Positions 17,274-30,325 of a stretch of DNA of 64,000 nt are shown piece after piece (the first letter of the stretch is position 1; each line of letters begins with the position of its first letter). The stretch spans positions 32,001 to 96,000 of IMG/VR virus record IMGVR_UViG_3300032401_000002. One strand, given 5' to 3'. The position numbers were made by a program, and so were the translations under genes. The DNA comes from a virus. The notes under the pieces are model-generated. The model ran no database searches. It saw only the letters and a list, made by a program, of their open reading frames with translations, and was not told the origin of the DNA.

Positions 17274-17483
17274 TTGGGGGCAAGCAGTTACTGAAGGTAT
17301 ACCGATGGTGTAGTTTGCCATCTGATCGCCTGGCTCTTCGGAGCAGGGAGATACATAGTTCGGGTAGCCCATCTGGCGCAGCATTGCTACGGGGATCGCA
17401 ACCGAGGCAGATGCCGAACGAAGTAGAGTTTCGAGACTGGGGGTCGATCCCCAAGGTTGGCCCCCAGTCTCAAAGTTTATCGT

Positions 17484-17555
17484 CGCGGATTGGAGCAGTG
17501 GTAGCTCGCTAGGCTCATAACCTAGAGGTCGTTGGTTCGAATCCATCATCCGCTA
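17484..17555 (+). tRNA. tRNA-Met(CAT), initiator-like
   Basis: Cloverleaf, C1 mismatch, fMet-type D arm, loop CTCATAA. Confidence 0.9.
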
Positions 17556-17920
17556 TGAGGCCACCGCCCTAATACCCACGGGTAGTCGGGTTGTGCTGGC
17601 CTCTCTAGCTCAGGTGTATAACAGGACGGCTTGCCGTCTGAGGCCACCTGGGAACGGGTACGGGGTGGAGGCTGGTCGCCGTCTGCTTGTGGTGTAGCGT
17701 CGTCTTCGGACGGGGTGTAATCCGCAGGTTTGATATAGAGCAGTCCCACTCCGTCCCACCTATCCCTTTCTAGCTCACACAAGACTGTCGCGAAAGCGGC
17801 ACCACACGCGCATCTATGCGCGGATTGAGCAGGGTGGCACACAACCTTGACCAAAAGAGTGTGTCTGCGCATGAGATCGCAGGAACCATCTCACGGGCAT
17901 GGCCCGTTACAGCCATACTA

Positions 17921-17994
17921 CAGCGTGTAGCTCAGTCTGGTAGAGTGTCCGTCTGGGGGACGGAGAGTCGAGGGTTCGAGTCCCTCCACGCTGA
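17921..17994 (+). tRNA. tRNA-Pro(GGG)
   Basis: Cloverleaf, loop CTGGGGG. Confidence 0.93.
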
Positions 17995-18002
17995 TAGCAT
18001 GA

Positions 18003-18078
18003 CTGGATGTAGCTCAGTTTGGTTCAGAGTACCCGATTCGGATTCGGGGAGTCGGAGGTTCGAATCCTCCCATCCAGA
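18003..18078 (+). tRNA. tRNA-Pro(CGG)
   Basis: Cloverleaf, loop TTCGGAT. Confidence 0.92.
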
Positions 18079-18082
18079 TAGA

Positions 18083-18157
18083 CAGGTCGTAGCTCAGTCT
18101 GGTAAGAGTGCCCGCCTTGGACGCGGGGAGTCGGTGGTTCGAATCCACCCGGCCTGA
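18083..18157 (+). tRNA. tRNA-Pro(TGG)
   Basis: Cloverleaf, loop CTTGGAC. Confidence 0.93.
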
Positions 18158-18391
18158 TACCTCCTATCCTGAGGGGGAACCCCGCGTTGACCGTGGGATC
18201 GTAAGCGCGTCTCGGCGCTCGTGGAAACTACCCGGACATAGGCGGGCAAGTCTGCGAGAACAACCTGGGGCGAAGCGCGTACCCTGCGCGAGCGGTTAAC
18301 AGAGCACAAGGTTTACATGGTTCGGCTCGTCGTGATGGTCTGTCGCGCTCCTTGTGCCGCGCGATGGATGGCAGGCCATCCTGAGCAACTT

Positions 18392-18755
18392 GGGCATGCC
18401 CGGTTTCGACAGTCGTGTATGGGCAATGAGATGCAGCGGGTCGCGGCCTTATCGCGCCAAGCCTTGGACAGGGCAACCACATGCAGACGACAACATCGTC
18501 TCCACGGACTACATCGACAACGGCATCGCCGCTCTCGAAGACTTCCTCGCGGAAGCGTCCCTCGTCACGGTCTAGCGAGTACCAATAGACCGCTGTGTCG
18601 CCCAGCTTAGGCGACTGACTGCTCGGAAAGTGACGAGTTGACCCGGAGAGGGAAAGTCCTCTGCCCTGGTGGAGGGCACACAGCCCCCAAAGAAGCTGCT
18701 AGAAGTCTTGTTGTAACCGCTCGGTTGGACGAGGGTTCGACTCCCTCCATGTCCA
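18392..18755 (+). ncRNA. ssrA: tmRNA
   Basis: Acceptor GGGCATG/CATGTCC-A with G3.U70, 5' GGTTTCGAC, 3' GGACGAGGGTTCGACTCCCTC T arm, tag ORF 18483-18575 starting GCA. Confidence 0.93.
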
Positions 18756-18901
18756 CTGCAAGAATCAAGAAATCCCCTAGGGGCGTCGTTGTCTGCTACC
18801 AGTTCCGCAGGAGCAGCCAGGTGCGGAACACCTGCGAGGCGTATGAGGGAGAGTCACGAGAGTGACACGGAGATGTCTTTCCCTAGGGGCATCTCTCACA
18901 C

Positions 18902-18970
18902 GCGGAGTAGGCTAAGGCAGCCAAGTGGTCTCCAACACCACAGGACAGGGTTCGATTCCTTGACGCCGCG
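18902..18970 (+). tRNA. tRNA-Trp(CCA), atypical core
   Basis: GTGGT-CTCCAAC-ACCAC arm, T arm, G73; acceptor mismatch and odd connector lengths. Confidence 0.75.
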
Positions 18971-19055
18971 CTTCATCACTGAAAGGTTCGAGGGTTGACT
19001 GAAGGTACGGTTCGTCTGCTCACGGCAGGCAGCTAGGCTTCAGCAGTGATGGCAT

Positions 19056-19129
19056 GCCCCGTTAGTCTAACGGTTCAGGATACCACCCTCTCACGGTGGG
19101 GATTGCGGGTTCGAATCCCGCACGGGGTA
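19056..19129 (+). tRNA. tRNA-Glu(CTC)
   Basis: Cloverleaf, loop CTCTCAC. Confidence 0.92.
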
Positions 19130-19170
19130 CTGCCTTCGGGCACTGGGCCACGCAGCATCAGTGGCATCAC

Positions 19171-19242
19171 TGGAGGGTAGCTCAATGGTAGAGTGTCCCG
19201 CTGTTAACGGGGTGGTTCTGGGTTCGAGTCCCAGCCTTCCAG
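19171..19242 (+). tRNA. tRNA-Asn(GTT)
   Basis: Cloverleaf, loop CTGTTAA. Confidence 0.93.
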
Positions 19243-19254
19243 CTTGCAACACAT

Positions 19255-19328
19255 GGCCTGTTCGTCTAGCGGTCTAGGATACCGGGCTTTCAACTCGGAC
19301 GACAAGGGTTCGAATCCCTTACGGGCTA
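19255..19328 (+). tRNA. tRNA-Glu(TTC)
   Basis: Cloverleaf, loop CTTTCAA. Confidence 0.92.
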
Positions 19329-19427
19329 CTGACGGTGCCACGAGCCGTCGTAAGCAACTCGTGGTCGTGAACAGAGAGGGACGACGGGAAACCGTCCTCT
19401 GACACGGATGAGAAAGCTCCCACACCT

Positions 19428-19500
19428 TAGAGGGTGGTCTAATCGGCAGGACGCCAGGCTCTGACCCTGGAGATTGAAGGTTCGATCCCTTCCCCTCTAG
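19428..19500 (+). tRNA. tRNA-Gln(CTG)
   Basis: Cloverleaf, loop CTCTGAC. Confidence 0.92.
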
Positions 19501-19505
19501 CTCTC

Positions 19506-19577
19506 AACAGGGTAGACTAACGGTAGGTTCCCTGGCCTTGAACCAGGTCGGTCTAGGTTCGAATCCTAGCCCTGTTA
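19506..19577 (+). tRNA. tRNA-Gln(TTG)
   Basis: Cloverleaf, loop CCTTGAA (C33). Confidence 0.82.
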
Positions 19578-19662
19578 CTGCAACAAGATTGCCACGCCCC
19601 TATGCCGGGGCCAATCTAGGCGGGTATTGCGCCCGTGTGTCCAGGTGAAAGCCCTGGCTTAT

Positions 19663-19737
19663 GCCCCTCTAGCCCAACTGGCCAGAGGCAACGGCTTTAA
19701 AGACCGTTCAGTGAAGGTTCGAATCCTTCGGGGGGCA
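19663..19737 (+). tRNA. tRNA-Leu(TAA), short variable arm
   Basis: Actinobacterial-type Leu body, loop TTTAAAG, C31.A39 mismatch. Confidence 0.82.
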
Positions 19738-20121
19738 CTGAAGGACACGCACGTCTGCGCGAAGGGGTTGCTCCCGGAGAGCTTAGGGCGTCCGTGGTGG
19801 TGTGGCCGAGTAGGACTGGATTCCTCTCCACGAGGGGTACAGTTGCGAAGGCACAACCGGCGAAAGTGACGGGCAACCGGCACGAGTAGTAGCCGCGACA
19901 AGGGTGTTGCGTTCGGCCAGAGCCAATCGGTGAGGTCGGTCTCAGTCAGCACTCGTCTGGGAGTAGTTACCTGGGCAGACGGTGGCGCTTGACAGCGCAG
20001 GGAAGGTACGACCGAAACTGTAGCCATTGACATGGACAAGCAGTGGATAGGTCGTCGGAGGGTTGCTGAATCCCTTCCACCACTCCTTCTATCTCTTTCT
20101 CCCCGCACAGTAACTAGCACT

Positions 20122-20301
20122 ATGGCGGGAATCATGATCAGGTGCTCAGGCACGAAGGACGGGGTACATTGTGCCCGGTACACTCGTTTCATTGGAGCGC
20201 CGAATGTTGACTGGACGTGCGAAGGGTGCCTTGCTGGTCGAGCACCATTCGAGCACAAGTCGAAGGTTGTCCAGCAGCAGATGAAGCACAAGAAGAAGTA
20301 G
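20122..20301 (+). CDS. small zinc-finger-like basic protein inside the RNA island
   Basis: MAGIMIRC(8)C...CEGC...KHKKK, 59 aa from ATG 20122. Confidence 0.6.
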   Translation: MAGIMIRCSGTKDGVHCARYTRFIGAPNVDWTCEGCLAGRAPFEHKSKVVQQQMKHKKK

Positions 20302-20304
20302 CTT

Positions 20305-20378
20305 ACCTCGCTAGCTCAAACGGATAGAGCAAGGGTCTTTTAAACCCAAGGTTCTGGGATCGTACCCCAGGCGAGGTA
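20305..20378 (+). tRNA. tRNA-Lys(TTT)
   Basis: Cloverleaf, loop CTTTTAA, T loop ATCGTAC. Confidence 0.87.
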
Positions 20379-20541
20379 CTCTTGAACGACTATTCGGCTC
20401 CTCTGGACGCTGCGCGGCTTCACCACCGCTCGACTCCATGTGGTTCATGGAGGGTCAAGGTTGTTGACGGTAGGCACGCTCGCGACGTAGCCGAAAGACA
20501 GCTTACCGAAGGGCAAGACCGCACTGGTCGTTCAAGTTATT

Positions 20542-20615
20542 GGATCGCTAGCTCAGTTAGGCAGAGCAGGGGACTCTTAATCCCAAGGTCGTCGGTTCGA
20601 TCCCGACGCGATCCA
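20542..20615 (+). tRNA. tRNA-Lys(CTT)
   Basis: Cloverleaf, loop CTCTTAA. Confidence 0.94.
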
Positions 20616-20635
20616 CTGGCCGCAAGGCCGACAGG

Positions 20636-20717
20636 GCCGGAAGGGCGAGGGTTCGAATCCCTCCCGGACAAGGAGCTTCGGCTCACCGTCCGGTAGCTCA
20701 GTGGGAGAGCGTCCGGC
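20636..20717 (+). ncRNA. circularly permuted tRNA-like RNA (YrlA-like topology)
   Basis: Order: anticodon 3' strand, T arm, acceptor 3', UUCG hairpin, acceptor 5', D arm, anticodon 5' strand. Confidence 0.8.
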
Positions 20718-20722
20718 GTTAT

Positions 20723-20805
20723 GCTCTGGTGGTGGAATTGGTATACACACTAGCCTTAGAAGCTAGCGCCCACAGGGATTGAGGGTTCGACTCCCTCCTA
20801 GAGCA
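20723..20805 (+). tRNA. tRNA-Leu(TAG)
   Basis: Long variable arm, loop CTTAGAA. Confidence 0.93.
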
Positions 20806-20857
20806 CTAGGTAGACGTACCGAGACCCAGCGGATGGGTCAACCTAAAGTCCGCACCC

Positions 20858-20941
20858 GCGCTCGTGATGGAATGGGTAGACATGCTAGGTTGAGAGCCTA
20901 GTGGCCGCGAGGTCGTGCAGGTTCAAGTCCTGCCGTGCGCA
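20858..20941 (+). tRNA. tRNA-Leu(GAG)
   Basis: Long variable arm, loop TTGAGAG. Confidence 0.9.
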
Positions 20942-20942
20942 T

Positions 20943-21012
20943 AGGATGGTAGCCCAACAGAGAGGCAGCCCGACAAGGGAAGAGTTGCCGGAATCGAGTC
21001 CGGCCCATCCGA
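20943..21012 (+). ncRNA. tRNA-like element without a canonical anticodon arm
   Basis: GGATGG/CCATCC acceptor, TAGCCCAA..AGAGGC D arm, GCCGG-AATCGAGT-CCGGC T arm. Confidence 0.6.
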
Positions 21013-21016
21013 CCCT

Positions 21017-21090
21017 GGTACGCTAGCTCAATTGGTAGTAGCGTTCGGTTGAAGCCCGAAAGGTTCTCGGTTCAAGTCCGAGGCGTACCA
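21017..21090 (+). tRNA. tRNA-Phe(GAA)
   Basis: Cloverleaf, loop TTGAAGC. Confidence 0.9.
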
Positions 21091-21100
21091 CTGTAGTATT

Positions 21101-21175
21101 GCCCTCTTAGCCCAATCCGGCAGAGGCACCAGCCTCAAACCCTGGTCAGTGGAGGTTCGACTCCTCCAGAGGGCA
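21101..21175 (+). tRNA. tRNA-Leu(CAA), short variable arm
   Basis: Loop CTCAAAC, C31.C39 mismatch. Confidence 0.85.
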
Positions 21176-21189
21176 TAGTACCACCACAT

Positions 21190-21264
21190 GCGGATCGTAG
21201 CTCAATCGGTCAGAGTCGTGGCTTGTGAAGCCATCGGTTGCGGGTTCGAATCCCGTCGATCCGC
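21190..21264 (+). tRNA. tRNA-His(GTG)
   Basis: G-1:C73 pair, loop TTGTGAA. Confidence 0.92.
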
Positions 21265-21271
21265 CTTGTAC

Positions 21272-21344
21272 GTGCGAATGGCTCAGTAGGTAGAGCATCT
21301 GGTTGCCAATCAGAAGGTCGCGGGTTCGAACCCCGCTTCGCACA
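21272..21344 (+). tRNA. tRNA-Gly(GCC)
   Basis: Cloverleaf, loop TTGCCAA, A73. Confidence 0.92.
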
Positions 21345-21465
21345 TCGGTAGCTGGTTGGCGAGTCCTTCCCATGCAGCCTGGGCGACCTGAGTCTCGGCC
21401 GAGATGAGGGAACCTTGTGAATCGGGTCGTTGGCCAACTTGTGCAAACCATCCAGGTGCCGTCCT

Positions 21466-21539
21466 GCTCCATAAGCTCAGTCTGGCAGAGCGCTGGTCTT
21501 GTAAATCAGGGGTTGTCGGTTCGATCCCGACATGGAGCT
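21466..21539 (+). tRNA. tRNA-Thr(TGT)
   Basis: Cloverleaf, loop CTTGTAA. Confidence 0.93.
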
Positions 21540-21542
21540 TAC

Positions 21543-21615
21543 GACCCGGTAACTCAGTGGACAGAGTCACGGTTTCCTAAACCGTTGGTCACAGGTTCGA
21601 CTCCTGTCCGGGTCA
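21543..21615 (+). tRNA. tRNA-Arg(CCT)
   Basis: Cloverleaf, loop TTCCTAA, A20. Confidence 0.93.
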
Positions 21616-21620
21616 TGTTT

Positions 21621-21693
21621 GGCCTGTTAGCTCAGTGGACAGAGCGTGGGGCTTCTATCCCCAGCGTCGGAGGTTCGATCCCTCCACGGGCCA
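21621..21693 (+). tRNA. tRNA-Arg(TCT)
   Basis: Cloverleaf, loop CTTCTAT. Confidence 0.93.
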
Positions 21694-21834
21694 CTTTACA
21701 CAAGACGCTCGAAGCGTCCTTGTACTAGATGATGCCCTTCGGGGCCGGGCGGGGCGATCCATTGGCCTGGGAACAGAACGAGGTCGAACACGACGGGTGA
21801 CAGTTGAACGGCGGGACGCCCGGTGCCCGCACAT

Positions 21835-21906
21835 GCGAAGGTAACTCAACGGTAGAGTCTCAGTTTTCCAAACTGGTGGTTGCGGGTTCGATTCCCGTCC
21901 TTCGCT
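21835..21906 (+). tRNA. tRNA-Gly(TCC)
   Basis: Cloverleaf, loop TTTCCAA. Confidence 0.92.
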
Positions 21907-21951
21907 CTCGGTGGGTGAGTCCAGGTTCGCCCTGTAAGTAGCCCACCGCTA

Positions 21952-22024
21952 CGCTGTGTAGCTCAGTTGGTAGAGCAATCCCCTCATAAGGGAGAGGTCG
22001 GAGGATCGTAGCCTCCCATAGCGA
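21952..22024 (+). tRNA. tRNA-Met(CAT), elongator
   Basis: Cloverleaf, loop CTCATAA, T loop ATCGTAG; Ile2 identity not excluded. Confidence 0.85.
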
Positions 22025-22130
22025 CTTCGGTCAGTGCTTAGGCACAGGACAACGAACCTCCCAAGACCCGGTACGACTCCACAACATGGGTGGAGCAACG
22101 TTCTGATCAAAAGCCGGGTTGGCCGAACAC

Positions 22131-22201
22131 GCTCCTATAGCTCATGTGGAAGAGTCATCCTTCGTACGGATGTGGTCGCAGTTCGACTCTGCGTGGGAGC
22201 T
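22131..22201 (+). tRNA. tRNA-Thr(CGT)
   Basis: Cloverleaf, loop TTCGTAC. Confidence 0.85.
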
Positions 22202-22204
22202 TGC

Positions 22205-22276
<72 letters not shown>

Positions 22277-22385
22277 TGCAACAAGACTCTCCTCGATGCG
22301 TGAGGGGCTGCTCACCAGCCCGCAAAGCGCAAACACGGGAGATAGACCGGGCGAACGGGAGTGAGCTTCGCCTGGTCGAACTTTC

Positions 22386-22458
22386 GGCCTGTTAGCTCAG
22401 CGGACAGAGCGAGTGGCTTCGAACCACTAGGTCGGGGGATCGTACCCCTCACAGGCCA
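22386..22458 (+). tRNA. tRNA-Arg(TCG)
   Basis: Cloverleaf, loop CTTCGAA, T loop ATCGTAC. Confidence 0.9.
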
Positions 22459-22468
22459 TGTAGTACCT

Positions 22469-22540
22469 GGTTTCGTACGAATCTGGTGAAACGGTTCCCC
22501 TGTCACGGGAATGAGGCGGGTTCGATTCCCGTCGAGACCG
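22469..22540 (+). tRNA. tRNA-Asp(GTC)
   Basis: TTCCC-CTGTCAC-GGGAA arm, G73, weak D stem. Confidence 0.82.
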
Positions 22541-22691
22541 CTATGGGCTGTAGAGTCCTGGGGTGTTGGAGAATCCCCGAAGCTGCGAGGTAGACCAACC
22601 TCCTCGCGGCCTCTAGTCGCGCTCCTTGAAAGCTGGCCCGCAAGGCCGGTGGAAGTATCGGGCAAAACCGACGCGACTCATTCAGGGCCTG

Positions 22692-22763
22692 GGGCGGTTA
22701 GCTCAGTGGGAGAGCAGGTTCTTTACACGTACAAGGTCGGGGGTTCGAATCCCTCACCGCCCA
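22692..22763 (+). tRNA. tRNA-Val(TAC)
   Basis: Canonical D/T arms, loop TTTACAC, mismatched anticodon stem. Confidence 0.87.
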
Positions 22764-22771
22764 TACCAGGA

Positions 22772-22877
22772 TTCAGCGCTAGTGTGCCTGCCTGGGGCCG
22801 AACCACCCGTATGCCGGTGGGGGAATCAGCACCCGAGGGTACTCGGAGTTCAGGTGCGAACCCTGAGCGCTATTGAA
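22772..22877 (+). ncRNA. tRNA-like RNA with D-loop insertion and a tetraloop in place of the anticodon
   Basis: AGCGC/GCGCT acceptor, GTGT/GCAC D stem, CCGAG-GGTA-CTCGG, TCAGG-TGCGAAC-CCTGA T arm. Confidence 0.65.
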
Positions 22878-22879
22878 CG

Positions 22880-22953
22880 TGACCCGTAGCTCAGTGGTAA
22901 GAAGCGGGAGGCTTATATCCTCTTGGTCGTGGGTTCGATTCCCACCGGGTCAA
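22880..22953 (+). tRNA. tRNA-Ile(TAT)
   Basis: Cloverleaf, loop CTTATAT. Confidence 0.88.
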
Positions 22954-22954
22954 T

Positions 22955-23190
22955 CACGAACGGAAAGACAAGCGCGGTCGCAAGATCGAGGAAAGTCAGG
23001 CCACCTGAACCAGGGGAGACCAATGCAACCTGGGGAAACGTGACGAGGACGTGGGAGAAGGTCGCAAGGTCTTCGGCTTACCACCTAATCGGCGGGGTGC
23101 AACCTCAAGCGGACGGTCATCTCAGACCGGACAGGTAGAGGGCACAGATAGATGCTTGTCCTAGACAGAAGCCTGCTTACGAAGTTCGTG
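22955..23190 (+). ncRNA. rnpB: miniature RNase P RNA
   Basis: P1 CACGAAC/GTTCGTG, P2 GACAAGC/GCTTGTC, GAGGAAAGTC, 3' ACAGAAGCCTGCTTA with compensated P4, AGATAGATG. Confidence 0.88.
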
Positions 23191-23244
23191 TACACATGAG
23201 AGTGGTTTGGCGGTCGTGACCCATACCTCACGCGCTCTCACCTT

Positions 23245-23317
23245 TGGCTCGTAGCTCAGTTGGGAGAGCACTTGATTGACATTCAAGAGGTCGTCGGATC
23301 GAGGCCGACCGAGCCAA
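23245..23317 (+). tRNA. tRNA-Val(GAC)
   Basis: Cloverleaf, loop TTGACAT, T loop ATCGAGG. Confidence 0.88.
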
Positions 23318-23388
23318 CTTGCCCACCCGTCGCGTTGTAGGGGAGTGGCATAAGCCCCCGTCTGTTGCAACGCCAGCCGGGGGAACTC

Positions 23389-23462
23389 GCGGTTGTAGCT
23401 CAGTGGAATAGAGTATCAGGTTGCGAACCTGAGGGTCGCTGGTTCGAATCCAGCCAATCGCA
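23389..23462 (+). tRNA. tRNA-Arg(GCG)
   Basis: Cloverleaf, TCAGG-TTGCGAA-CCTGA. Confidence 0.9.
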
Positions 23463-23653
23463 CTCAGCACTACAAGTTTGGGGACGGCCCCGTCAGGCCC
23501 CTTCCCAACGCTACCTCTGGCGAGATAGGGGTCGTGTCAACTCGACCACGAAAGTGTCGGGGCGCTGCGAATCACAGAGCGTGTTATCTGTGGTCGTCTG
23601 CCGGGAGACTACCCCGTGTCAAACCAGGTGTAGCTGACGGCTCGCCTGGCCTA

Positions 23654-23727
23654 GGACTTGTAGCTCAGTGGTATAGAGCATCCGTCTGATACGCGGAGGG
23701 TCGGTGGTTCGACTCCACCCAAGTCCA
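23654..23727 (+). tRNA. tRNA-Ile(GAT)
   Basis: Cloverleaf, loop CTGATAC. Confidence 0.93.
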
Positions 23728-23849
23728 TGAGAAGTAGCTCAGATGCCATCTCGCATGTGTCTCCCGGCCAGAGCCGGATAGGGTGCATGCGGGGCAGAGC
23801 GGGCCGATGATCACGGTCGCGACGAGGGGCTGGCAATCCTCCTTCTCTA
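23728..23849 (+). ncRNA. tRNA-like RNA with a 56-nt structured D loop
   Basis: GAGAAG/CTTCTC acceptor, TA-GCTC...GAGC D stem, GGCCG-ATGATCA-CGGTC, variant T arm. Confidence 0.65.
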
Positions 23850-23852
23850 CAT

Positions 23853-23923
23853 AGTGATGTGACCGAGAGGCCAGGTCGTTGGCTGCAACCCTTCGCACAG
23901 CGGTTCGAATCCGCTCATCACTT
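23853..23923 (+). tRNA. tRNA-Cys(GCA)
   Basis: Loop CTGCAAC, U73, mismatched anticodon stem. Confidence 0.83.
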
Positions 23924-23927
23924 CTTC

Positions 23928-24001
23928 GGGCGGCTAGCTCAATTTGGGAGAGCAACGCGCTTGCACCGCGTAGGTTGGGGGTTCAAGTCCCCCGCTGTCC
24001 A
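23928..24001 (+). tRNA. tRNA-Ala(TGC)
   Basis: G3.U70, loop CTTGCAC. Confidence 0.93.
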
Positions 24002-24003
24002 CT

Positions 24004-24103
24004 ACCGAAAGAACGGGTTCGAATCCCGGCCGCGCGACCCAAGCTAGAGGGGTATACACCAAAGGCGAAGGTCTGATCAGTAGTGTAAGGGCAGCACGTC
24101 GGT
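24004..24103 (+). ncRNA. second circularly permuted tRNA-like RNA
   Basis: ACCGA...CGGG-TTCGAAT-CCCG...TAGTGTAAGGGCAGCAC-G-TCGGT; ACCGA pairs with TCGGT. Confidence 0.62.
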
Positions 24104-24110
24104 TTAACTT

Positions 24111-24186
24111 GGGTTGTGGGGCTGCATGGGGTGGCCATCTCGCTTGCACCGAGAACAACAGCAGGGTTCGATTCCCTGACGATCCA
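24111..24186 (+). tRNA. tRNA-Ala(TGC), atypical second copy
   Basis: G3.U70, loop CTTGCAC; G8G9, unusual D loop, 7-nt variable loop. Confidence 0.78.
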
Positions 24187-24278
24187 CTAGGAAGCAGAAG
24201 CACGCAGATGACTCGTAGGTGTTCTAGAAACCAGGGCCGTAACGCAACCGTGCCCCATCAGCGCTGCATCCTACTCGT

Positions 24279-24362
24279 GGTAGGTTACTCAAGTGGTTAC
24301 GAGAGCGGGTTGCTAACCCGTCAAGTCGCAAGGCTTCCTGGGTTCGAATCCCAGACCTACCG
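24279..24362 (+). tRNA. tRNA-Ser(GCT)
   Basis: Long variable arm, loop TTGCTAA. Confidence 0.92.
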
Positions 24363-24367
24363 TACCA

Positions 24368-24451
24368 GGAAGGTCGCATTGGCGTGCTTATGCGGTTTGA
24401 ACCCGTTGATGGGGCTAATCCCCCGTGGGAGTTCGACTCTCCCACCTTCCT
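24368..24451 (+). tRNA. tRNA-Ser(TGA), atypical D arm
   Basis: Long variable arm, loop TTTGAAC, T arm GGGAG-TTCGACT-CTCCC. Confidence 0.75.
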
Positions 24452-24455
24452 CTTT

Positions 24456-24536
24456 GCTGGCGCTTGCTCAATGGTGAGGGCTACTGGCTGTAACCCAGAA
24501 GACACGTCTATGGGGGTTCGACTCCTCCCGCCAGCA
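24456..24536 (+). tRNA. tRNA-Tyr(GTA)
   Basis: Loop CTGTAAC, variable-arm hairpin, A73. Confidence 0.8.
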
Positions 24537-24542
24537 CTCCGC

Positions 24543-25079: not shown

Positions 25080-27128
25080 ATGAGCGAAATCACCACCCTT
25101 TCGGACGAACTCTGGAGCGACATCGAGCACGGTCGTGTTGACCGCTCCAAGTTCCTCTTCCTCGAAGAAAGCGACTCCCTCAAGCGCCAATGGAAGGTCG
25201 AGTCGTTCGATGAGAACTACTGGGCGCGCATGGGTGACACGGTCACGAGGTTCTCGACCGTGTCGGTGAGCAGTTACCCTCGCTTTGCACGGGTGGCTGA
25301 CGAGATGGGCTATACGCCTGTCTTCATGGACGATCCGACCGATCACTTTGACTGGGTCACGTCATTGGATCGCGATCCTCTCGTCGCCGTCAATTCCTCC
25401 CTGGAGGGAACGATTGGTGGTTTCTTGCCGTTCCAGGCACGGGGCCTGAACTTCATGAAGAGCACCAACCGCTGCGTCTACTTCCAGTGGAGCACGGGCA
25501 CGGGCAAGACGTTGGCAGCCGAGGGCACGATCCTCGTCAAGTCCAAGGAGGGCTACGGCGAGAACAAGGACGAGGGCTTCGACCTCTGCTTGTACGTTGT
25601 TAAGCCCAACAACCTCGTGAACACCCAGCGCAAGCTCAAGGATCACACGGGCCTGACGGGACGCATCTTGTCCGGCACGCCCAAGCGCCGCCAGACCATG
25701 ATCGCAGAGACCGCTGCTGCGATGGTCGCTGGCGAGCAGCCTATCCTGATCTTCAACGCCGAGAAGTTCCGCGAGGACACCGAGCTTCTGAAGCTCTTGG
25801 TCGAGGATCACAAGCTCCTGGTCATCTTCGATGAGATGCCGACCAAGTACGCCAACCGTGGCACGGCGCTGTACAAGGCGACGGCCGAGGTTCTCTACAC
25901 GACTTTCGTCATCCCCCAGGACGGCAAGGGCAAGGGCAAGCCGCTCTTCTACCCGAGCGTCAAGGGTGACCGCCCGAGCGAGGTCTTCTACGTTGCCATG
26001 TCGGCCACGCCGATCTCGAACTCACCCGAGGACTTCTTCAACTCGATCCGCCTCATGGACTCCTCGATCTACGGGAGCGTCAAGGACTTCAACAACCAGT
26101 TCGTGTCGTCGCGTGACCGCTGGTTCCAGATCGACGGTTGGAAGTCTCTCGACCTGATGGGCGCGATGGCGGCACACATCGTTCACCAGGTTGACAAGCA
26201 CACTGACCCGGAGATCAACGCTCAGTTCCCGACCAAGCTCCCGCCCGAGACGGTCTACTGCGACATGGACTCGGCCACTGAGAAGCTGTACGCCAAGCTC
26301 CAGAAGGAGTACGAGAACATCAAGAACGGTTCGATGCTCGACTTCGAGGAGATCCTCGCAGCCATCGGCACCTTCCAGATGCTGTGCTCTAATCCCCGCT
26401 CAGTGCTCATCTCGGCCAAGATCCGCGAGGAGTACGAGGCCAAGCTCGATGACTTCCTGGCCACCGACCCGAGCGAGGACGAGATCAAGGAGTTCGAGAA
26501 GAAGTTCCGCGACGGTAGCTTGGTCGCCCTCAAGCTCCGCACCCTCGTCAATGACGATTCCAAGTTCACGGACGAGAACGCCAAGGGCGAGTGCATCGTC
26601 TCCAAGATGATCGAGCTTCGTGAGCGCATCGAGCAGAATGACGACAAGGTCATCGTCTTCTCGACCATGAACCAGACTCTGCTTCCCCTGATCTCCGAGT
26701 GGCTCGACAAGTGGGGCATCACGCATGTGTCGTACCACGGTGGTATCACGGGCCACGCCAACAAGCAGGCGATCATCGATGAGTTCCGCACGAACCCGGA
26801 CGTAAAGGTCTTCCTGAGCACGGATGCTGGGTCGGACTCCATCGATCTTCCCGAGGCCACCCTCACCATCCACTACGACCTTCCCTGGACGAAGAGCAAG
26901 ATCACGCAGCGCGAGAATCGGCAGGATCGCATCGACTCGACCAAGGATGCAGTCCAGGTGGTCACCCTCGCAGTCCCGTTCACGGTCGAGGATCGCAAGG
27001 CCGAGATCCTGAGCATCAAGCAGGGATACCACGACTCGCTCTTCAACGGTGTCATCTCCGAGACCGAGGGCAAGGCCGTGAAGTCTGACTTCTTCTACAT
27101 CCTGACGGGCAAGCGAGAAGGCGAGTAA
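25080..27128 (+). CDS. SNF2-family (SF2) helicase
   Basis: LPFQARG, STGTGKT, FDEM, SATP, KVIVFS, YDLPW...QRENRQDRI. Confidence 0.88.
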   Translation: MSEITTLSDELWSDIEHGRVDRSKFLFLEESDSLKRQWKVESFDENYWARMGDTVTRFSTVSVSSYPRFARVADEMGYTPVFMDDPTDHFDWVTSLDRDPLVAVNSSLEGTIGGFLPFQARGLNFMKSTNRCVYFQWSTGTGKTLAAEGTILVKSKEGYGENKDEGFDLCLYVVKPNNLVNTQRKLKDHTGLTGRILSGTPKRRQTMIAETAAAMVAGEQPILIFNAEKFREDTELLKLLVEDHKLLVIFDEMPTKYANRGTALYKATAEVLYTTFVIPQDGKGKGKPLFYPSVKGDRPSEVFYVAMSATPISNSPEDFFNSIRLMDSSIYGSVKDFNNQFVSSRDRWFQIDGWKSLDLMGAMAAHIVHQVDKHTDPEINAQFPTKLPPETVYCDMDSATEKLYAKLQKEYENIKNGSMLDFEEILAAIGTFQMLCSNPRSVLISAKIREEYEAKLDDFLATDPSEDEIKEFEKKFRDGSLVALKLRTLVNDDSKFTDENAKGECIVSKMIELRERIEQNDDKVIVFSTMNQTLLPLISEWLDKWGITHVSYHGGITGHANKQAIIDEFRTNPDVKVFLSTDAGSDSIDLPEATLTIHYDLPWTKSKITQRENRQDRIDSTKDAVQVVTLAVPFTVEDRKAEILSIKQGYHDSLFNGVISETEGKAVKSDFFYILTGKREGE

Positions 27129-27391
27129 TGGCCGTCCGCAGAGATCACCCCGTCACGGTTCGCGAGAGCTTTCTCCTAGCTGAAGCGTGGACAGACGCCA
27201 TCGGTGGCGTCAGCCACTCCGAGATCCTGATCAGCAACCCTGAGCATCACGACCCGGCTTGGCTGGAGGAGCTTGCAGCCGATGGGTGGACTCTCACGAA
27301 ATATGTCCGCGAGGGGTTGACAAACCCGTCAGAACCGACTACTCTTAGTGAAGTAAGCCATTCCACAAGAGGAGAACACTTTGATTCCTGA
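27128..27391 (+). CDS. hypothetical protein
   Basis: 87 aa ORF coupled (TAATG) to the helicase. Confidence 0.55.
   Translation: MAVRRDHPVTVRESFLLAEAWTDAIGGVSHSEILISNPEHHDPAWLEELAADGWTLTKYVREGLTNPSEPTTLSEVSHSTRGEHFDS
27317..27345 (+). promoter_or_regulatory. early promoter for rIIA/rIIB
   Basis: TTGACA-N17-TACTCT, near-identical to the 25045 promoter. Confidence 0.85.
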
Positions 27392-29321
27392 GACCCGCAA
27401 CATCGAAGTCACCGGCACCCTCCAGGGTGAGAAGGTTGGCATGAGCATCAAGCAGGATGCGCTCGCTCACATCATGAGCGTCCTGACCGACCTCTATTCC
27501 GACCCCGAGCTTGCTGTCGTTCGTGAGTACAGCACGAACGGCTTCGATGCACACGTCGAGGCTGGTGTCTCCCTCCCGGTCGAGGTCACGACACCGAGCA
27601 ACATGTCGCCGTACTTCAAGGTGCGCGACTTCGGCAATGGTCTTAACGCTGAGGACATCCGCGAGATCTACTCGCAGTACGGCGCTTCGACCAAGCGTGG
27701 CTCGGACGACGTTGTCGGGATGCTGGGCCTGGGCTGCAAGTCGGCTCTGACCTACACCGACCAGTTCACGCTGACGGGCATCAAGGATGGCATTGCCACC
27801 GAGGTCGCGATCTCCCGTGACGCGGATGGTGCTGGTTCGATGACCATCGTCGCAACCTACGCCACGGATGACGCTTCGGGCGTCGAGGTTGTCGTGCCTG
27901 TCAAGGGAATGAACACGTTCGCCAAGACGGCTCAGGACTTCTTCCGCTTCTGGGAGCCGGGCACGGTGCTCGTGGACAGCAAGGAGCCGGTCGCGGTCGA
28001 GGGTCTTCAGGTCACTGATGACATCCTCGTCACAGACAAGCTCGATTCCTCCTACATCGTCATGGGCAACGTCGCTTATCCCTTCGACACCTACGAGCGC
28101 TACAACATCGTCGCGCGAGTCGCTATTGGTGCGGTGCAGTTCACGCCGTCACGCGAGGCGCTCCAGATGACCGACAAGACGACGCAGGCCATCAACGACG
28201 TGAAGGTGCGGGCCGAGGAAGGCAAGCTCAACGCCATCCAGGCTCTGGTGGACGCTGCCTCGGATCGCTTCGAGGGCATCATGGTCGCGCTCTCGGCCGA
28301 GAACATCTACGGGATCAGGCTCAACAAGCTCACGTACCAGGGCACGGAGTTCCCCGACCGGATCGAGATCTCCGACAAGAAGGATGCGCAGGAGTTCGTC
28401 GCGGTCAAGGCCGTCAAGGGCTACCGCTCCAAGGGTTGGAGCAAGGAGAAGTGGGTCGCTACGTCTTACATCTCCAAGGTTGTCTTCATGACCGGCTACA
28501 ACGGATCGGCGTTCACTCCTACCAAGCGCCTCAAGCTGGAGGGCTGGGAGGCACTCCAGACCGGCGAGAGCTTCGTGCGGCCCGAGCACTACTACCTGAT
28601 CGATAAGCTCACCAAGGCCGAGAAGCAGTGGATCAGGCCCGAGCAGATCGTGAACTGGGCCGACGTTGACGCCATCAAGATCGTGCGAGAGAGTCGGACT
28701 GGTGCCACCAAGGAAGACGGCGCTCCGAGCGGTTCGTACGAGGGCTACGTTGCAGGCAGTCGTCGCAACGACATCCTGGCCTCGGAGATCAACCCCTCCA
28801 ATCGGGTCGGCCTCTTCTACTGCGACCACAAGAACTCCCGTCACTACCGCGAGATCATCTTCTCCAAGTACCCGAACGCCACCATCGTGGAGCTTCCCTC
28901 GAACCGCATGAGCAAGTTCCTTCGCTTCTTCCCCAAGGCTCGTCACGCTCGCGACACGAGCATCAGCATCGCCAAGAAGTGGAGCGAGACGCTGACGGTC
29001 GAGCAGAAGCTCGCGATCAACTTCGAGCAGGCTGGTCGGTACGAGTACAGCTACATGACCAAGCTGGACGAGGCGCTGATCCAGGACGAGGACTTCTCGG
29101 CCATCGTGAAGGCGTACAAGTCCAAGGCCAAGGCTGCGGCCAAGTACAACATCATGAAGAACTTCCTGCACGGCACCAAGATCGAGAACATGATCGAGGA
29201 CACCACGGATAAGTACCCCCTCTTGACAGCCATGAACTTGTACGGTACTATGGGAGAGAAGGCATCTGCCGACCTCATCGTCTATCTGAACGCGGCCTAC
29301 TTGGTCGGGAAGGAGATCTAA
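27381..29321 (+). CDS. rIIA: RIIA-like protein (N-terminal GHKL ATPase)
   Basis: LYSDPELAVVREYSTNGFDAH, VRDFGNGL, YGASTKR, GMLGLGCKS, FTPSREAL. Confidence 0.88.
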   Translation: MIPETRNIEVTGTLQGEKVGMSIKQDALAHIMSVLTDLYSDPELAVVREYSTNGFDAHVEAGVSLPVEVTTPSNMSPYFKVRDFGNGLNAEDIREIYSQYGASTKRGSDDVVGMLGLGCKSALTYTDQFTLTGIKDGIATEVAISRDADGAGSMTIVATYATDDASGVEVVVPVKGMNTFAKTAQDFFRFWEPGTVLVDSKEPVAVEGLQVTDDILVTDKLDSSYIVMGNVAYPFDTYERYNIVARVAIGAVQFTPSREALQMTDKTTQAINDVKVRAEEGKLNAIQALVDAASDRFEGIMVALSAENIYGIRLNKLTYQGTEFPDRIEISDKKDAQEFVAVKAVKGYRSKGWSKEKWVATSYISKVVFMTGYNGSAFTPTKRLKLEGWEALQTGESFVRPEHYYLIDKLTKAEKQWIRPEQIVNWADVDAIKIVRESRTGATKEDGAPSGSYEGYVAGSRRNDILASEINPSNRVGLFYCDHKNSRHYREIIFSKYPNATIVELPSNRMSKFLRFFPKARHARDTSISIAKKWSETLTVEQKLAINFEQAGRYEYSYMTKLDEALIQDEDFSAIVKAYKSKAKAAAKYNIMKNFLHGTKIENMIEDTTDKYPLLTAMNLYGTMGEKASADLIVYLNAAYLVGKEI

Positions 29322-29323
29322 GC

Positions 29324-30325
29324 ATGAGTCTCAACTACACACTCGTCGGGAACGAGGCGGGAGAGAAGAACGTCACTCTCTACGTCGAGGGTCGCAAGCC
29401 CCTCCTCGCCCACTCGACGCATCCCAAGTTCGACGCCATCGTCGCTGGCATCCTCGCGGACGACGCCTCGGTGGCCGATCTCTTCGACCTGAGCCAGGTC
29501 GCGGGTCAGAAGTTCGAGAAGCTGTCGGAGCGGGTCGCGGTCGCCAATGGCCGGGTCTACTTCGATGGCGAGGAGCTTGACGAGGCCATCTCCGGTGAGA
29601 TCGTCGGTTTCATCGAGGCCAGCGTCGAGGACTGGAAGCCCCTCGTCGCGTTCATCGAGAACGTCATGCAGAACCCGAACCCGCACTCGCGGGAGAACCT
29701 CTACACCTGGCTGGTGGCGCACGAGATCACGATCACCGAGTCGGGCCTGCTCGTTGGCTACAAGGGCGTCGAGAAGGATGCGGACGGCAACCTTCAGTCG
29801 TCTTCAGAGGGAGTCGCCACGGTGGACGGCACGGTGTTCGAGGGCAAGATCCCGAACCCCATCGGAGCCGTCGTGGAGATGCCCCGCGCGTCAGTCGATC
29901 ACGACCCGAGCAACCCGTGCATGAGTGGCCTGCACGTCGGGACGTACCAGTACGCCAAGGGCTTCGCCTCGGTGCTCCTGGAGGTTCACGTCAACCCGCG
30001 CGACATCGTGAACGTCCCGGACGCCAGCTTCAAGTTCCGCACTTGCCGGTACACTGTCGTCCAGGTGATCGAGGATCGCTACACGTCCAAGGTCGTCGCG
30101 GACGCCAAGCCCGCCGAGCAGGTTGCGGCCGAGTACGATCTCCGCAAGGGGACGATCTTCGAGGACACCGATGCTCGCCGGATCGGTCGGAAGCTCAAGG
30201 TGGTCGAGGTCGAAGGTGACCAGGCAGTCGTGGAGTCCAACGGCAAGACCACGAGGGTCAAGATCGCCCGGCTCTTCACCCGCAAGTACAAGCTCGTGCG
30301 GAAGGGCCGCAAGCCGAAGGCGTAG
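29324..30325 (+). CDS. rIIB: RIIB-like protein
   Basis: NPNPHSRENLY.WL, GYKGV, VEMPR..VD, CMSGLHVG, VHVNPRDIVNVP; follows rIIA. Confidence 0.88.
   Translation: MSLNYTLVGNEAGEKNVTLYVEGRKPLLAHSTHPKFDAIVAGILADDASVADLFDLSQVAGQKFEKLSERVAVANGRVYFDGEELDEAISGEIVGFIEASVEDWKPLVAFIENVMQNPNPHSRENLYTWLVAHEITITESGLLVGYKGVEKDADGNLQSSSEGVATVDGTVFEGKIPNPIGAVVEMPRASVDHDPSNPCMSGLHVGTYQYAKGFASVLLEVHVNPRDIVNVPDASFKFRTCRYTVVQVIEDRYTSKVVADAKPAEQVAAEYDLRKGTIFEDTDARRIGRKLKVVEVEGDQAVVESNGKTTRVKIARLFTRKYKLVRKGRKPKA

What the first reader, a model, noticed from the sequence alone, without database searches (positions are those of the whole stretch)
24004..24103. Circularly permuted tRNA mimic 2 with an expanded acceptor domain
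Seen: the same T-before-D order as 20636 with unrelated sequence. ACCGA pairs with TCGGT, the T arm is CGGG-TTCGAAT-CCCG and the D arm is GTGT-AAGGGCA-GCAC. The acceptor is poorly paired and continues into GACC/GGTC and a small internal domain. Inference: two independent permuted elements argue for a selected RNA class rather than an accident.
Basis: partly seen in the sequence, partly recalled or inferred. Interest (0 to 1): 0.7.

Follow-up and report, generated by a model that had tools for sequence, protein, structure and literature searches.

The report
Eroded phage tRNA mimic (YrlA-type)
This 100-base spacer between two alanine tRNA genes of an uncultured sediment phage is a tRNA look-alike with its parts in rotated order, the same design as the known bacterial Y RNA YrlA; it is the most eroded of a small family that related phages keep in their tRNA operons, so it is a variant of a known kind.

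Summary
At 24004-24103 (+) lie, in order, ACCGA, a 4-5 nt variable loop, a T arm with the canonical TTCGAAT loop, a 51-nt insert, TA, a D arm (GTGT-AAGGGCA-GCAC), G, then TCGGT. With the T arm held fixed, shuffled flanks reproduced the D arm plus closing stem once in 50,000 trials.

T-before-D order is the published YrlA (Y RNA-like) design, not a new class. The sister element at 20637-20716 and two relatives' elements hit Rfam YrlA at 34-35 bits (threshold 69). Element 2 gives no hit.

Related phages carry such modules at the same array positions (after tRNA-Lys, around tRNA-Ala). Six of them keep 91% of pairs, and 14 of 21 pairs covary.

Element 2 is the weakest member:
- the acceptor is unpaired;
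- the 15:48 pair is broken (A:A);
- the first T-stem pair is A·G;
- the tRNA-like fold is 13 kcal/mol worse than the free fold;
- the two closest non-identical relatives lack it.

One metagenome contig does hold a homolog with an identical D arm.

The 93%-complete phage genome has no Ro60/TROVE, DUF2828, VWA or RtcB gene.

Most likely it is a divergent, possibly decaying, Ro-less tRNA-elbow mimic released by tRNA processing. This scan has reported YrlA-like modules in many other phages' tRNA arrays.

The parts
23928..24002 (+). tRNA-Ala(UGC) #1, canonical. Its 3' end lies 2 nt before the element, so 3' processing of this tRNA would set the element's 5' end.
   Evidence: ARAGORN; Rfam tRNA 62.6 bits
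24004..24008 (+). Closing-stem 5' strand ACCGA, in the position of the 3' strand of a tRNA anticodon stem. With the next bases it reads ACCGAAAG, one base off the YrlA 5' motif GNCGAAN0-1G.
   Evidence: 5/5 pairs; at most 3/5 in five shifted registers; motif from PMC4201824
24009..24012 (+). Variable-loop equivalent AAGA. A44 is kept, as in all family members. Position 48 is A, which cannot form the Levitt pair with A15.
24013..24029 (+). T arm: ACGGG / TTCGAAT / CCCGG. Four pairs plus an A·G mismatch. The T loop is canonical, with G53-C61.
   Evidence: T arm outside any ARAGORN tRNA; the same 15-mer as the T arms of tRNA-His and tRNA-Glu(CTC)
24030..24080 (+). Acceptor-position domain (51 nt). 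The base is an unpaired 7x7 loop. Then come GACC 24036-24039 / GGTC 24070-24073, GCU 24043-24045 / GGC 24064-24066, and a small inner hairpin. It also holds the 8-nt palindrome CTGATCAG (24073-24080).
   Evidence: constrained and free folds; pair counts; metagenome contigs break inside it
24081..24098 (+). U8-A9 equivalent (TA), then the D arm GTGT / AAGGGCA / GCAC, then G26. A14, G18, G19 and A21 are present. Against the family's GCTC/GAGC, the stem differs on both sides at two pairs.
   Evidence: identical in the X19 metagenome homolog; close to the L022 D arm GTGC-AACGGCA-GCAC
24099..24103 (+). Closing-stem 3' strand TCGGT.
   Evidence: TCGGTT is kept in the X19 homolog
24104..24110 (+). 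7-nt trailer TTAACTT up to the next tRNA. RNase P cleavage at 24110/24111 would set the element's 3' end (inference).
   Evidence: coordinates
24111..24187 (+). tRNA-Ala(UGC) #2, non-canonical: G8, D arm GGCT-GCATGGGGT-GGCC, G3:U70 kept, below Rfam's tRNA threshold. It is conserved, with compensatory changes, as Ala#2 of L009. In L004 and L005 it is missing together with element 2.
20637..20716 (+). Sister element 1: a clean permuted tRNA-like module with a 6-bp acceptor closed by a UUCG hairpin and a G15:C48 pair. Its free fold is the permuted cloverleaf.
   Evidence: (YrlA 33.7 bits)

Best explanation
Element 2 is a tRNA-derived RNA module of the YrlA type: a tRNA shape with no anticodon loop, opened where the anticodon loop would be and joined across the acceptor end. 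It lies in the phage's single-strand tRNA operon.

Inferred steps:
- It is transcribed with the array.
- It is freed as an RNA of about 105-108 nt when the flanking alanine tRNAs are matured. 3' processing of Ala#1 acts 2 nt upstream. RNase P acts at the 5' end of Ala#2, 7 nt downstream.
- It acts, if it acts at all, by presenting a tRNA-like T-loop/D-loop elbow on a 5-bp closing stem to proteins that recognise tRNA shape.

Shown:
- It belongs to a family that related phages keep at fixed places in their arrays.
- Within that family it is the most diverged copy. The acceptor helix is replaced by an open loop plus a small inserted domain, and the 15:48 tertiary pair is lost.
- Unlike classical YrlA, it has no long Ro60-binding stem, and the phage has no detectable Ro60 gene.

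Any partner would therefore be a host protein or another tRNA-binding factor.
For: Architecture and chance:
- All parts are present in tRNA register.
- D arm plus closing stem recur in 1 of 50,000 flank shuffles.
- There are only two descriptor hits in 150 kb, both in array spacers.

Family:
- Modules with the same order lie after tRNA-Lys (window, L010), between two tRNA-Ala genes (window, L008, L009) and between tRNA-Ala and tRNA-Ser (L008, L009, L012, L022).
- For five of them the unconstrained fold is the permuted cloverleaf.
- On six members, 91% of cells pair against 71.5% in shuffles. 14 of 21 pairs change on both sides, and slid controls give 33-51%.
- The acceptor helix was not used to find them, yet it is 83% paired with 5 of 6 pairs covarying.
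- G26 and A44 are invariant, and 15:48 is G:C or A:U in 6 of the 7 other members.
- Closing stems pair 5/5 in 10 of 43 T..D combinations against 8 of 215 in shifted registers, Fisher p = 1e-4.

Link to YrlA:
- Rfam YrlA gives 33.7, 35.2 and 34.0 bits for element 1, L012 and L010.
- The topology and the 15:48 covariation match those described for YrlA (PMC4201824).

Element 2 itself:
- Its D stem keeps pairing through changes on both sides relative to the family.
- A metagenome contig (run X19) has a homolog. It is 83% identical over 24013-24072 and only 5/10 identical in the next 10 nt, yet its D arm is identical and TCGGTT is kept.
- L022 has a near-identical D arm on a paired acceptor carrying a 96-nt insert.
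Against: - The acceptor is 0/7 or 4/7 paired, against 4-7/7 in the other members. 15:48 is A:A and the first T-stem pair is A·G.
- The tRNA-like fold is 13 kcal/mol above the free fold, which uses D-arm bases otherwise. The MFE is no better than shuffles.
- The Rfam YrlA model gives no usable hit: none at E<=10 in a 131-nt search, and 11.2 bits for a misplaced match.
- The two closest non-identical relatives (82% and 74% helicase identity) lack element 2 and Ala#2.
- All full copies I could read are 100% identical, so there is no covariation within the orthologs.
- I have no evidence of transcription.
- The 93%-complete genome has no TROVE, DUF2828 or VWA_2 match.
Confidence: 0.5

Rival explanations
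1. Decaying relic. Element 2 was once a working module of the same family and is now non-functional spacer that still shows its ancestry. It is kept only because it lies between two tRNAs.
For: - The acceptor helix is lost, the Levitt pair is broken and the T stem has a mismatch.
- There is no thermodynamic support.
- It is lost together with Ala#2 in L004 and L005/L006.
- Metagenome contigs break within the acceptor-position domain, which suggests strain variation there.
Against: - The T loop, the D loop (A14, G18, G19, A21), G26, A44 and a perfect 5-bp Watson-Crick closing stem are all intact.
- The D arm is identical in a relative in which the neighbouring 10 nt are half changed.
- L022, at 47% helicase identity, keeps a near-identical D arm.
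Confidence: 0.3
2. Processing element. The stretch works in cis as a leader of the odd tRNA-Ala#2 or as a spacer. It folds as the free-energy minimum (closing stem, T hairpin, long irregular arm) and guides RNase P or 3' processing rather than mimicking a tRNA in trans.
For: - The free fold is 13 kcal/mol better than the tRNA-like one.
- The element abuts both tRNAs, at 2 and 7 nt.
- It is gained and lost together with Ala#2 in L004 and L005.
- The array encodes its own small RNase P-like RNA.
Against: - In the X19 contig the element stands directly before tRNA-Ser, without Ala#2.
- The free fold is no more stable than shuffles.
- It does not explain the intact D-loop and T-loop consensus.
Confidence: 0.1
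3. Chance juxtaposition of two unrelated tRNA fragments: the 3' half of one tRNA followed by the 5' half of another.
For: - T arm then D arm is what any two adjacent tRNAs give. The YrlA model hits many such junctions in this array.
- Chen et al. filtered for this artefact.
- Closing-strand complementarity alone is common within the array.
- The acceptor strands do not match.
Against: - Neither arm lies in a tRNA gene.
- The flank shuffle gives 2e-5.
- No resident tRNA is a paralog of either half beyond the generic T arm.
- Relatives have modules at the same syntenic place.
Confidence: 0.05
4. True circularly permuted tRNA gene, as in Cyanidioschyzon merolae, matured by end-joining into a decoding tRNA.
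For: - The 3' half lies before the 5' half, with the break in the anticodon loop.
- Exactly 7 nt (TTAACTT) follow the closing stem.
Against: - There is no acceptor helix to aminoacylate.
- Position 37 of the would-be loop is U.
- The genome has no RtcB match.
- In the other family members the acceptor is sealed by a tetraloop.
Confidence: 0.02

Closest known systems
YrlA (Y RNA-like A), Rfam RF02553; Chen et al. 2014, RNA 20:1715 (PMC4201824)
   Same: - The order is basal stem, V region, T arm, acceptor-like arm, D arm, basal stem.
- The conserved tRNA T-loop and D-loop bases are present.
- 15:48 covaries as G:C or A:U in the family.
- YrlA also occurs in phages: Chen et al. list it in 22 bacteriophages.
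- Element 1, L010 and L012 give sub-threshold hits of 34-35 bits.
   Different: - There is no long Ro60-binding stem, only 5-6 bp.
- The GNCGAAN0-1G motif is not conserved across the family. Element 2 has ACCGAAAG, one base off.
- The element is not next to a Ro60 gene, and none is detected in the phage.
- It lies inside a tRNA operon.
- Element 2 has no acceptor hairpin, a D stem GTGT/GCAC instead of the near-invariant GCTC/GAGC, and no model hit.
YrlA-like modules in phage tRNA arrays reported earlier by this scan (mostly Felix O1-type phages with a Ro60-like gene)
   Same: A permuted, acceptor-sealed tRNA shape sits among phage tRNA genes.
   Different: Those notes describe a conserved terminal 'handle' and a neighbouring Ro60-like or DUF2828 gene. 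Here I found neither. I did not test their handle motif beyond reading the flanks.
Circularly permuted tRNA genes of the red alga Cyanidioschyzon merolae (from my own knowledge, Soma et al. 2007)
   Same: The 3' half is encoded upstream of the 5' half.
   Different: Those mature into normal decoding tRNAs through a circular intermediate and have intact acceptor stems. They are eukaryotic nuclear genes.
Two-piece (permuted) tmRNA genes of alpha-proteobacteria and others (from my own knowledge)
   Same: The gene order of a tRNA-like domain is permuted.
   Different: tmRNA keeps a chargeable acceptor end and carries a tag reading frame. This phage already has a standard one-piece tmRNA at 18392-18758.

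Membership tests
YrlA (RF02553) | T arm, then acceptor-like arm, then D arm, enclosed by a basal helix | tested here: met
   closing stem 5/5, T arm, D arm and TA/G26 spacing all in tRNA register
YrlA (RF02553) | Conserved tRNA-like T-loop and D-loop nucleotides and a 15:48 pair (G:C or A:U) | tested here: inconclusive
   T loop TTCGAAT, G53-C61, A14, G18, G19 and A21 are present. 15:48 is A:A in element 2, although it covaries correctly in 6 of the 7 other family members.
YrlA (RF02553) | Acceptor-position stem-loop (AS) between the T and D arms | tested here: not met
   0/7 or 4/7 scattered pairs at the base. Only GACC/GGTC pairs further in. The other members have 4-7/7.
YrlA (RF02553) | 5' motif GNCGAAN0-1G on a long basal stem, the presumed Ro60 site | tested here: inconclusive
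   Element 2 reads ACCGAAAG (5 of 6 fixed bases) within a 5-bp stem. There is no extended stem, and the motif is absent from most family members.
YrlA (RF02553) | Encoded within about 4 kb of, and on the same strand as, a Ro60/TROVE gene | tested here: not met
   No TROVE, DUF2828 or VWA_2 match in the 150-kb, 93%-complete record. None in the two partial relatives that could be searched.
YrlA (RF02553) | Covariance-model score at or above the gathering score (69 bits) | tested here: not met
   No hit at E<=10 in a 131-nt search. An 11.2-bit misplaced match in the genome search.
Phage-array family of permuted tRNA-like modules defined here | Module not inside any tRNA gene, in a spacer of the tRNA operon, at a conserved array position | tested here: met
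   Element 2 lies between Ala#1 and the conserved odd Ala#2, as do L008_A and L009_A. The subtype with an el2-like D arm stands before tRNA-Ser in L022 and the X19 contig.
Phage-array family of permuted tRNA-like modules defined here | Free fold equals the permuted cloverleaf | tested here: not met
   True for element 1, L010, L008_A, L009_A and L012. Not true for element 2 (-13.6 against -26.8 kcal/mol).
Functional circularly permuted tRNA gene | Paired 7-bp acceptor stem with a processable 3' end, and a 7-nt anticodon loop with a purine at 37 | tested here: not met
   The acceptor is unpaired. The would-be loop TTAACTT has U at 37. No RtcB ligase match.

The most novel reading that the evidence does not exclude
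Ro60-independent tRNA-elbow mimics are a standing part of the tRNA operons of this phage lineage, up to three per array at fixed positions, alongside a phage-encoded miniature RNase P RNA. They would serve a phage-specific purpose, for instance as ligands or decoys for host tRNA-recognising enzymes or defence nucleases, or as cofactors of the phage's own tRNA maturation. Element 2 would be a subtype in which the acceptor arm has been turned into a new functional domain.
Probability: 0.12. Interest if true: 0.7.

Novelty: new variant of a known kind. Interest (0 to 1): 0.35.

Why it matters
tRNA mimicry by Y-like RNAs is established for bacteria, and for phages that carry a Ro60 gene. Here the same design recurs in phages without a detectable Ro60 gene and without the Ro60-binding stem. 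It is embedded in tRNA operons that also hold a tmRNA and a small RNase P-like RNA. If these modules are functional, the tRNA-shaped part of Y RNAs has a role of its own, apart from Ro60, which bears on the open question of what that domain is for. Element 2 adds little to this: it is the least well-formed copy. Its main value is that it shows which parts survive erosion (T loop, D arm, closing stem) and which do not (acceptor helix, 15:48 pair).

Tried and rejected
Searches that found nothing:
- BLAST of the element against the phage collection found only tRNA-Ala matches.
- A single-protein search of viral contigs with the downstream helicase found no relatives. An alignment was needed.
- Exact and degenerate DNA patterns for the element found nothing in IMG/VR.
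- The long-gap pattern recovered L022/L037, plus two false matches that are a tRNA-Asn T arm followed by a tRNA-Gln D arm.
- The last contig look-up (P0017) gave a locus with no tRNA array.

Sequencing runs:
- The run search gave 16 sediment DNA runs holding the stretch, and two metatranscriptomes with 5-8% of the sampled words.
- The one RNA contig laid on the element covers only 24005-24039, with 5 mismatches and unlike flanks. It is another organism's T arm and says nothing about expression.
- I could not retrieve the letters of the X19 contig over 24013-24072, or the roughly 234 nt upstream of it.

Not built or not held:
- I did not build my own covariance model. MAFFT placed the gap for the 4-nt variable loops in the closing stem, which would have mixed two registers.
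- TROVE could not be searched in L008-L010, because those records are not held.
I redid the analysis from coordinates.

Readings considered and dropped:
- Two-piece tmRNA was dropped, because a normal tmRNA is present.
- A mascRNA-like element was dropped: 11.3 bits, E 8.7.
- A coding ORF was dropped: the ORFs at 23934-24203(-) and 24109-24477(+) overlap tRNA genes.

Full report
CONTEXT

The window is bases 32001-96000 of a 150,167-bp IMG/VR virus record, estimated 93% complete. It is about 57% G+C. Near-identical DNA occurs in many sediment metagenomes.

From 17483 to 24537, all on the + strand, lie 39 tRNA genes and a tmRNA. The finding sits in the 108-nt spacer between a canonical tRNA-Ala(UGC), 23928-24002, and a second, odd tRNA-Ala(UGC), 24111-24187.

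THE OBSERVATION

In tRNA numbering the stretch reads:

- closing strand ACCGA, 24004-24008
- AAGA (positions 44-48)
- T arm ACGGG / TTCGAAT / CCCGG, 24013-24029, with the first pair A·G
- 51 nt in the acceptor position
- TA (positions 8 and 9)
- D arm GTGT / AAGGGCA / GCAC, 24083-24097
- G26
- closing strand TCGGT, 24099-24103

Seven further bases (TTAACTT) reach the next tRNA.

A descriptor I wrote for this order finds exactly two places in the whole genome on either strand: this one and 20637-20716. With the T arm held fixed and its flanks shuffled, a D-arm-like motif arose in 2.2% of trials. D arm plus a 5/5 closing stem arose in 1 of 50,000.

Two cautions apply.

- Inside an array, complementarity of the closing strands alone is not rare. 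Shuffling them among the 76 T..D combinations gives 1.5 hits per shuffle. What is unusual is that both arms lie outside any tRNA gene.
- The element is not thermodynamically distinctive (z = +0.42). The tRNA-like fold is 13 kcal/mol worse than the free fold, which keeps the closing stem and T hairpin but pairs D-arm bases with 24030-24039.

WHAT KIND OF THING IT IS

T arm, then acceptor-like arm, then D arm, closed by a basal helix, is the published architecture of YrlA. YrlA is the tRNA-like Y RNA bound by bacterial and mycobacteriophage Ro60 (Chen et al. 2014, PMC4201824).

The sister element at 20637-20716 scores 33.7 bits on Rfam YrlA, E 3.6e-6 in a local search, against a threshold of 69. 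It is the best YrlA match in the genome. Element 2 gives no usable match.

The same model also produces weak hits to ordinary junctions between neighbouring tRNAs. Chen et al. filtered out this artefact.

RELATIVES

I found relatives through the SNF2-type helicase gene just downstream of the array, 25080-27128.

- Copies with an identical helicase carry an identical element.
- The next relatives, L004 (82% helicase identity) and L005/L006 (74%), lack it. Their tRNA-Ala runs straight into the 90-nt spacer that in the window follows Ala#2. Element 2 plus Ala#2 therefore form a 185-nt indel bounded by the repeat TCCACTA, 23998-24004 and 24183-24189.
- More distant relatives show that the arrangement is old. 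The odd Ala#2 has a clear homolog with compensatory changes in L009, and L008 also has an atypical second tRNA-Ala.

Permuted tRNA-like modules occupy the same array positions:

- between the two Ala genes: L008 5633-5700 and L009 8081-8148
- between tRNA-Ala and tRNA-Ser: L008 5831-5915, L009 8320-8396, L012 4135-4255 and L022 about 8512-8654
- after tRNA-Lys: the window's element 1 and L010 2875-2944

L012 and L010 hit YrlA at 35.2 and 34.0 bits.

EVIDENCE THAT THE FAMILY IS SELECTED

- For element 1, L010, L008_A, L009_A and L012 the unconstrained minimum-energy fold is the permuted cloverleaf.
- On an alignment of six members without element 2, 91% of cells pair against 71.5% in shuffles (0 of 500 reach it). 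14 of 21 pairs change on both sides, and sliding the partners drops pairing to 33-51%.
- The closing, T and D stems were part of my search criteria, so their pairing is partly built in. The acceptor helix was not, and it is 83% paired with 5 of 6 pairs covarying.
- When T and D hairpins are picked without regard to closing strands, the closing strands pair 5/5 in 10 of 43 cases. In shifted registers the figure is 8 of 215 (Fisher p = 1e-4).
- G26 and A44 are invariant. The 15:48 tertiary pair is G:C or A:U in six of the seven other members, the covariation reported for YrlA.

WHERE ELEMENT 2 STANDS

It is the most eroded member:

- the base of the acceptor is an open 7x7 loop
- 15:48 is A:A
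- the first T-stem pair is A·G
- the tRNA-like fold is not the favoured one

Against simple decay, several features are intact:

- the canonical T loop
- A14, G18, G19 and A21
- G26, A44 and a perfect Watson-Crick closing stem
- a D stem that differs from the family's GCTC/GAGC on both sides at two pairs and still pairs

Two observations suggest the D arm is held.

- L022 (47% helicase identity) has GTGC-AACGGCA-GCAC on a module whose acceptor is paired and carries a 96-nt branched insert.
- A contig in a freshwater-sediment run (X19) matches 24013-24072 at 83% identity. It then reads TCTATAGGTG, only 5 of 10 identical to the window, followed by an identical 15-nt D arm, then A, then CTCGGTT. 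This stands directly before tRNA-Ser(GCT), without Ala#2. I could not obtain the rest of that contig.

Neither half of element 2 has a paralog among the phage's own tRNAs beyond a generic T arm.

MECHANISM

Shown: the architecture, the family, and the position abutting two tRNAs.

Inferred from what is known of tRNA maturation: the element is co-transcribed and cut free by RNase P at 24110/24111 and by 3' processing of Ala#1, giving an RNA of about 105-108 nt.

Inferred from YrlA biology: it would act through its tRNA-like elbow as a ligand for tRNA-recognising proteins.

What is missing for the classical Ro60 mechanism:

- There is no TROVE, DUF2828 or VWA_2 match in the genome.
- The basal stem is only 5-6 bp.
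- The presumed Ro60 motif is not conserved in the family. Element 2's ACCGAAAG is one base off.
- A true permuted tRNA gene is close to excluded: no acceptor helix, U at the would-be position 37, and no RtcB match.

I put 0.5 on a divergent but still shaped tRNA mimic, 0.3 on a relic of one, and about 0.1 on a cis processing element. The rest goes to chance juxtaposition or a real permuted tRNA.

NOVELTY AND SCORE

The class is known, and this scan has already reported YrlA-like modules in the tRNA arrays of many other phages. What differs here is the lack of a Ro60 gene and handle, several modules at fixed array positions, and, for element 2, an opened and expanded acceptor arm. That makes it a new variant of a known kind, of moderate-to-low interest in itself (0.35).

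Noticed in passing
window 22954-23195 (+); also L010 6523-6810 and L012 2902-3219: A miniature RNase P RNA-like gene of about 240 nt lies inside the tRNA array. It matches Rfam bacterial RNase P class A end to end at 49.4 bits (threshold 100), E 1.5e-14 in a local search. Relatives give sub-threshold hits (43-44 bits) at the same array position. This supports the first readers' note of a phage-encoded small RNase P RNA.
   Followed up: partly
window 24111-24187 (+): The second tRNA-Ala(UGC) is non-canonical: G8, an unusual D arm, a long variable region, below Rfam's tRNA threshold. Yet it is conserved with compensatory acceptor and anticodon-stem changes in L009 (8224-8300), and it keeps G3:U70. 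It looks like a maintained, specialised alanine tRNA.
   Followed up: partly
window 24188-24277 (+); L004 379-468: The 90-nt spacer between Ala#2 and tRNA-Ser(GCT) is almost identical in L004, whose helicase is only 82% identical. That suggests a conserved RNA element of unknown kind.
   Followed up: no
window 22764-22879 (+); L005 390-507: The spacer between tRNA-Val(TAC) and tRNA-Ile(TAT) carries a T-arm-like hairpin outside any tRNA gene and is conserved in L005. First readers noted it as a tRNA mimic with an insert in the D loop.
   Followed up: no
L008 5633-5700 and L009 8081-8148: The modules between the two Ala genes in these relatives have lost the elbow signature on both sides at once. 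Their T loops are TCCGAAC and TTCCAGC, and their D loops lack GG. All four helices and A15:U48 are kept.
   Followed up: partly
window 24037-24091: Metagenome contigs from two sediment runs end at 24037, 24051 and 24091, inside the acceptor-position domain. This suggests that co-occurring strains differ there.
   Followed up: no
window 27381-30325 (+): Downstream of the helicase lie an rIIB-like gene (Pfam Phage_T4_rIIB, from contig annotations) and, before it, a large HATPase_c_3 protein.
   Followed up: no
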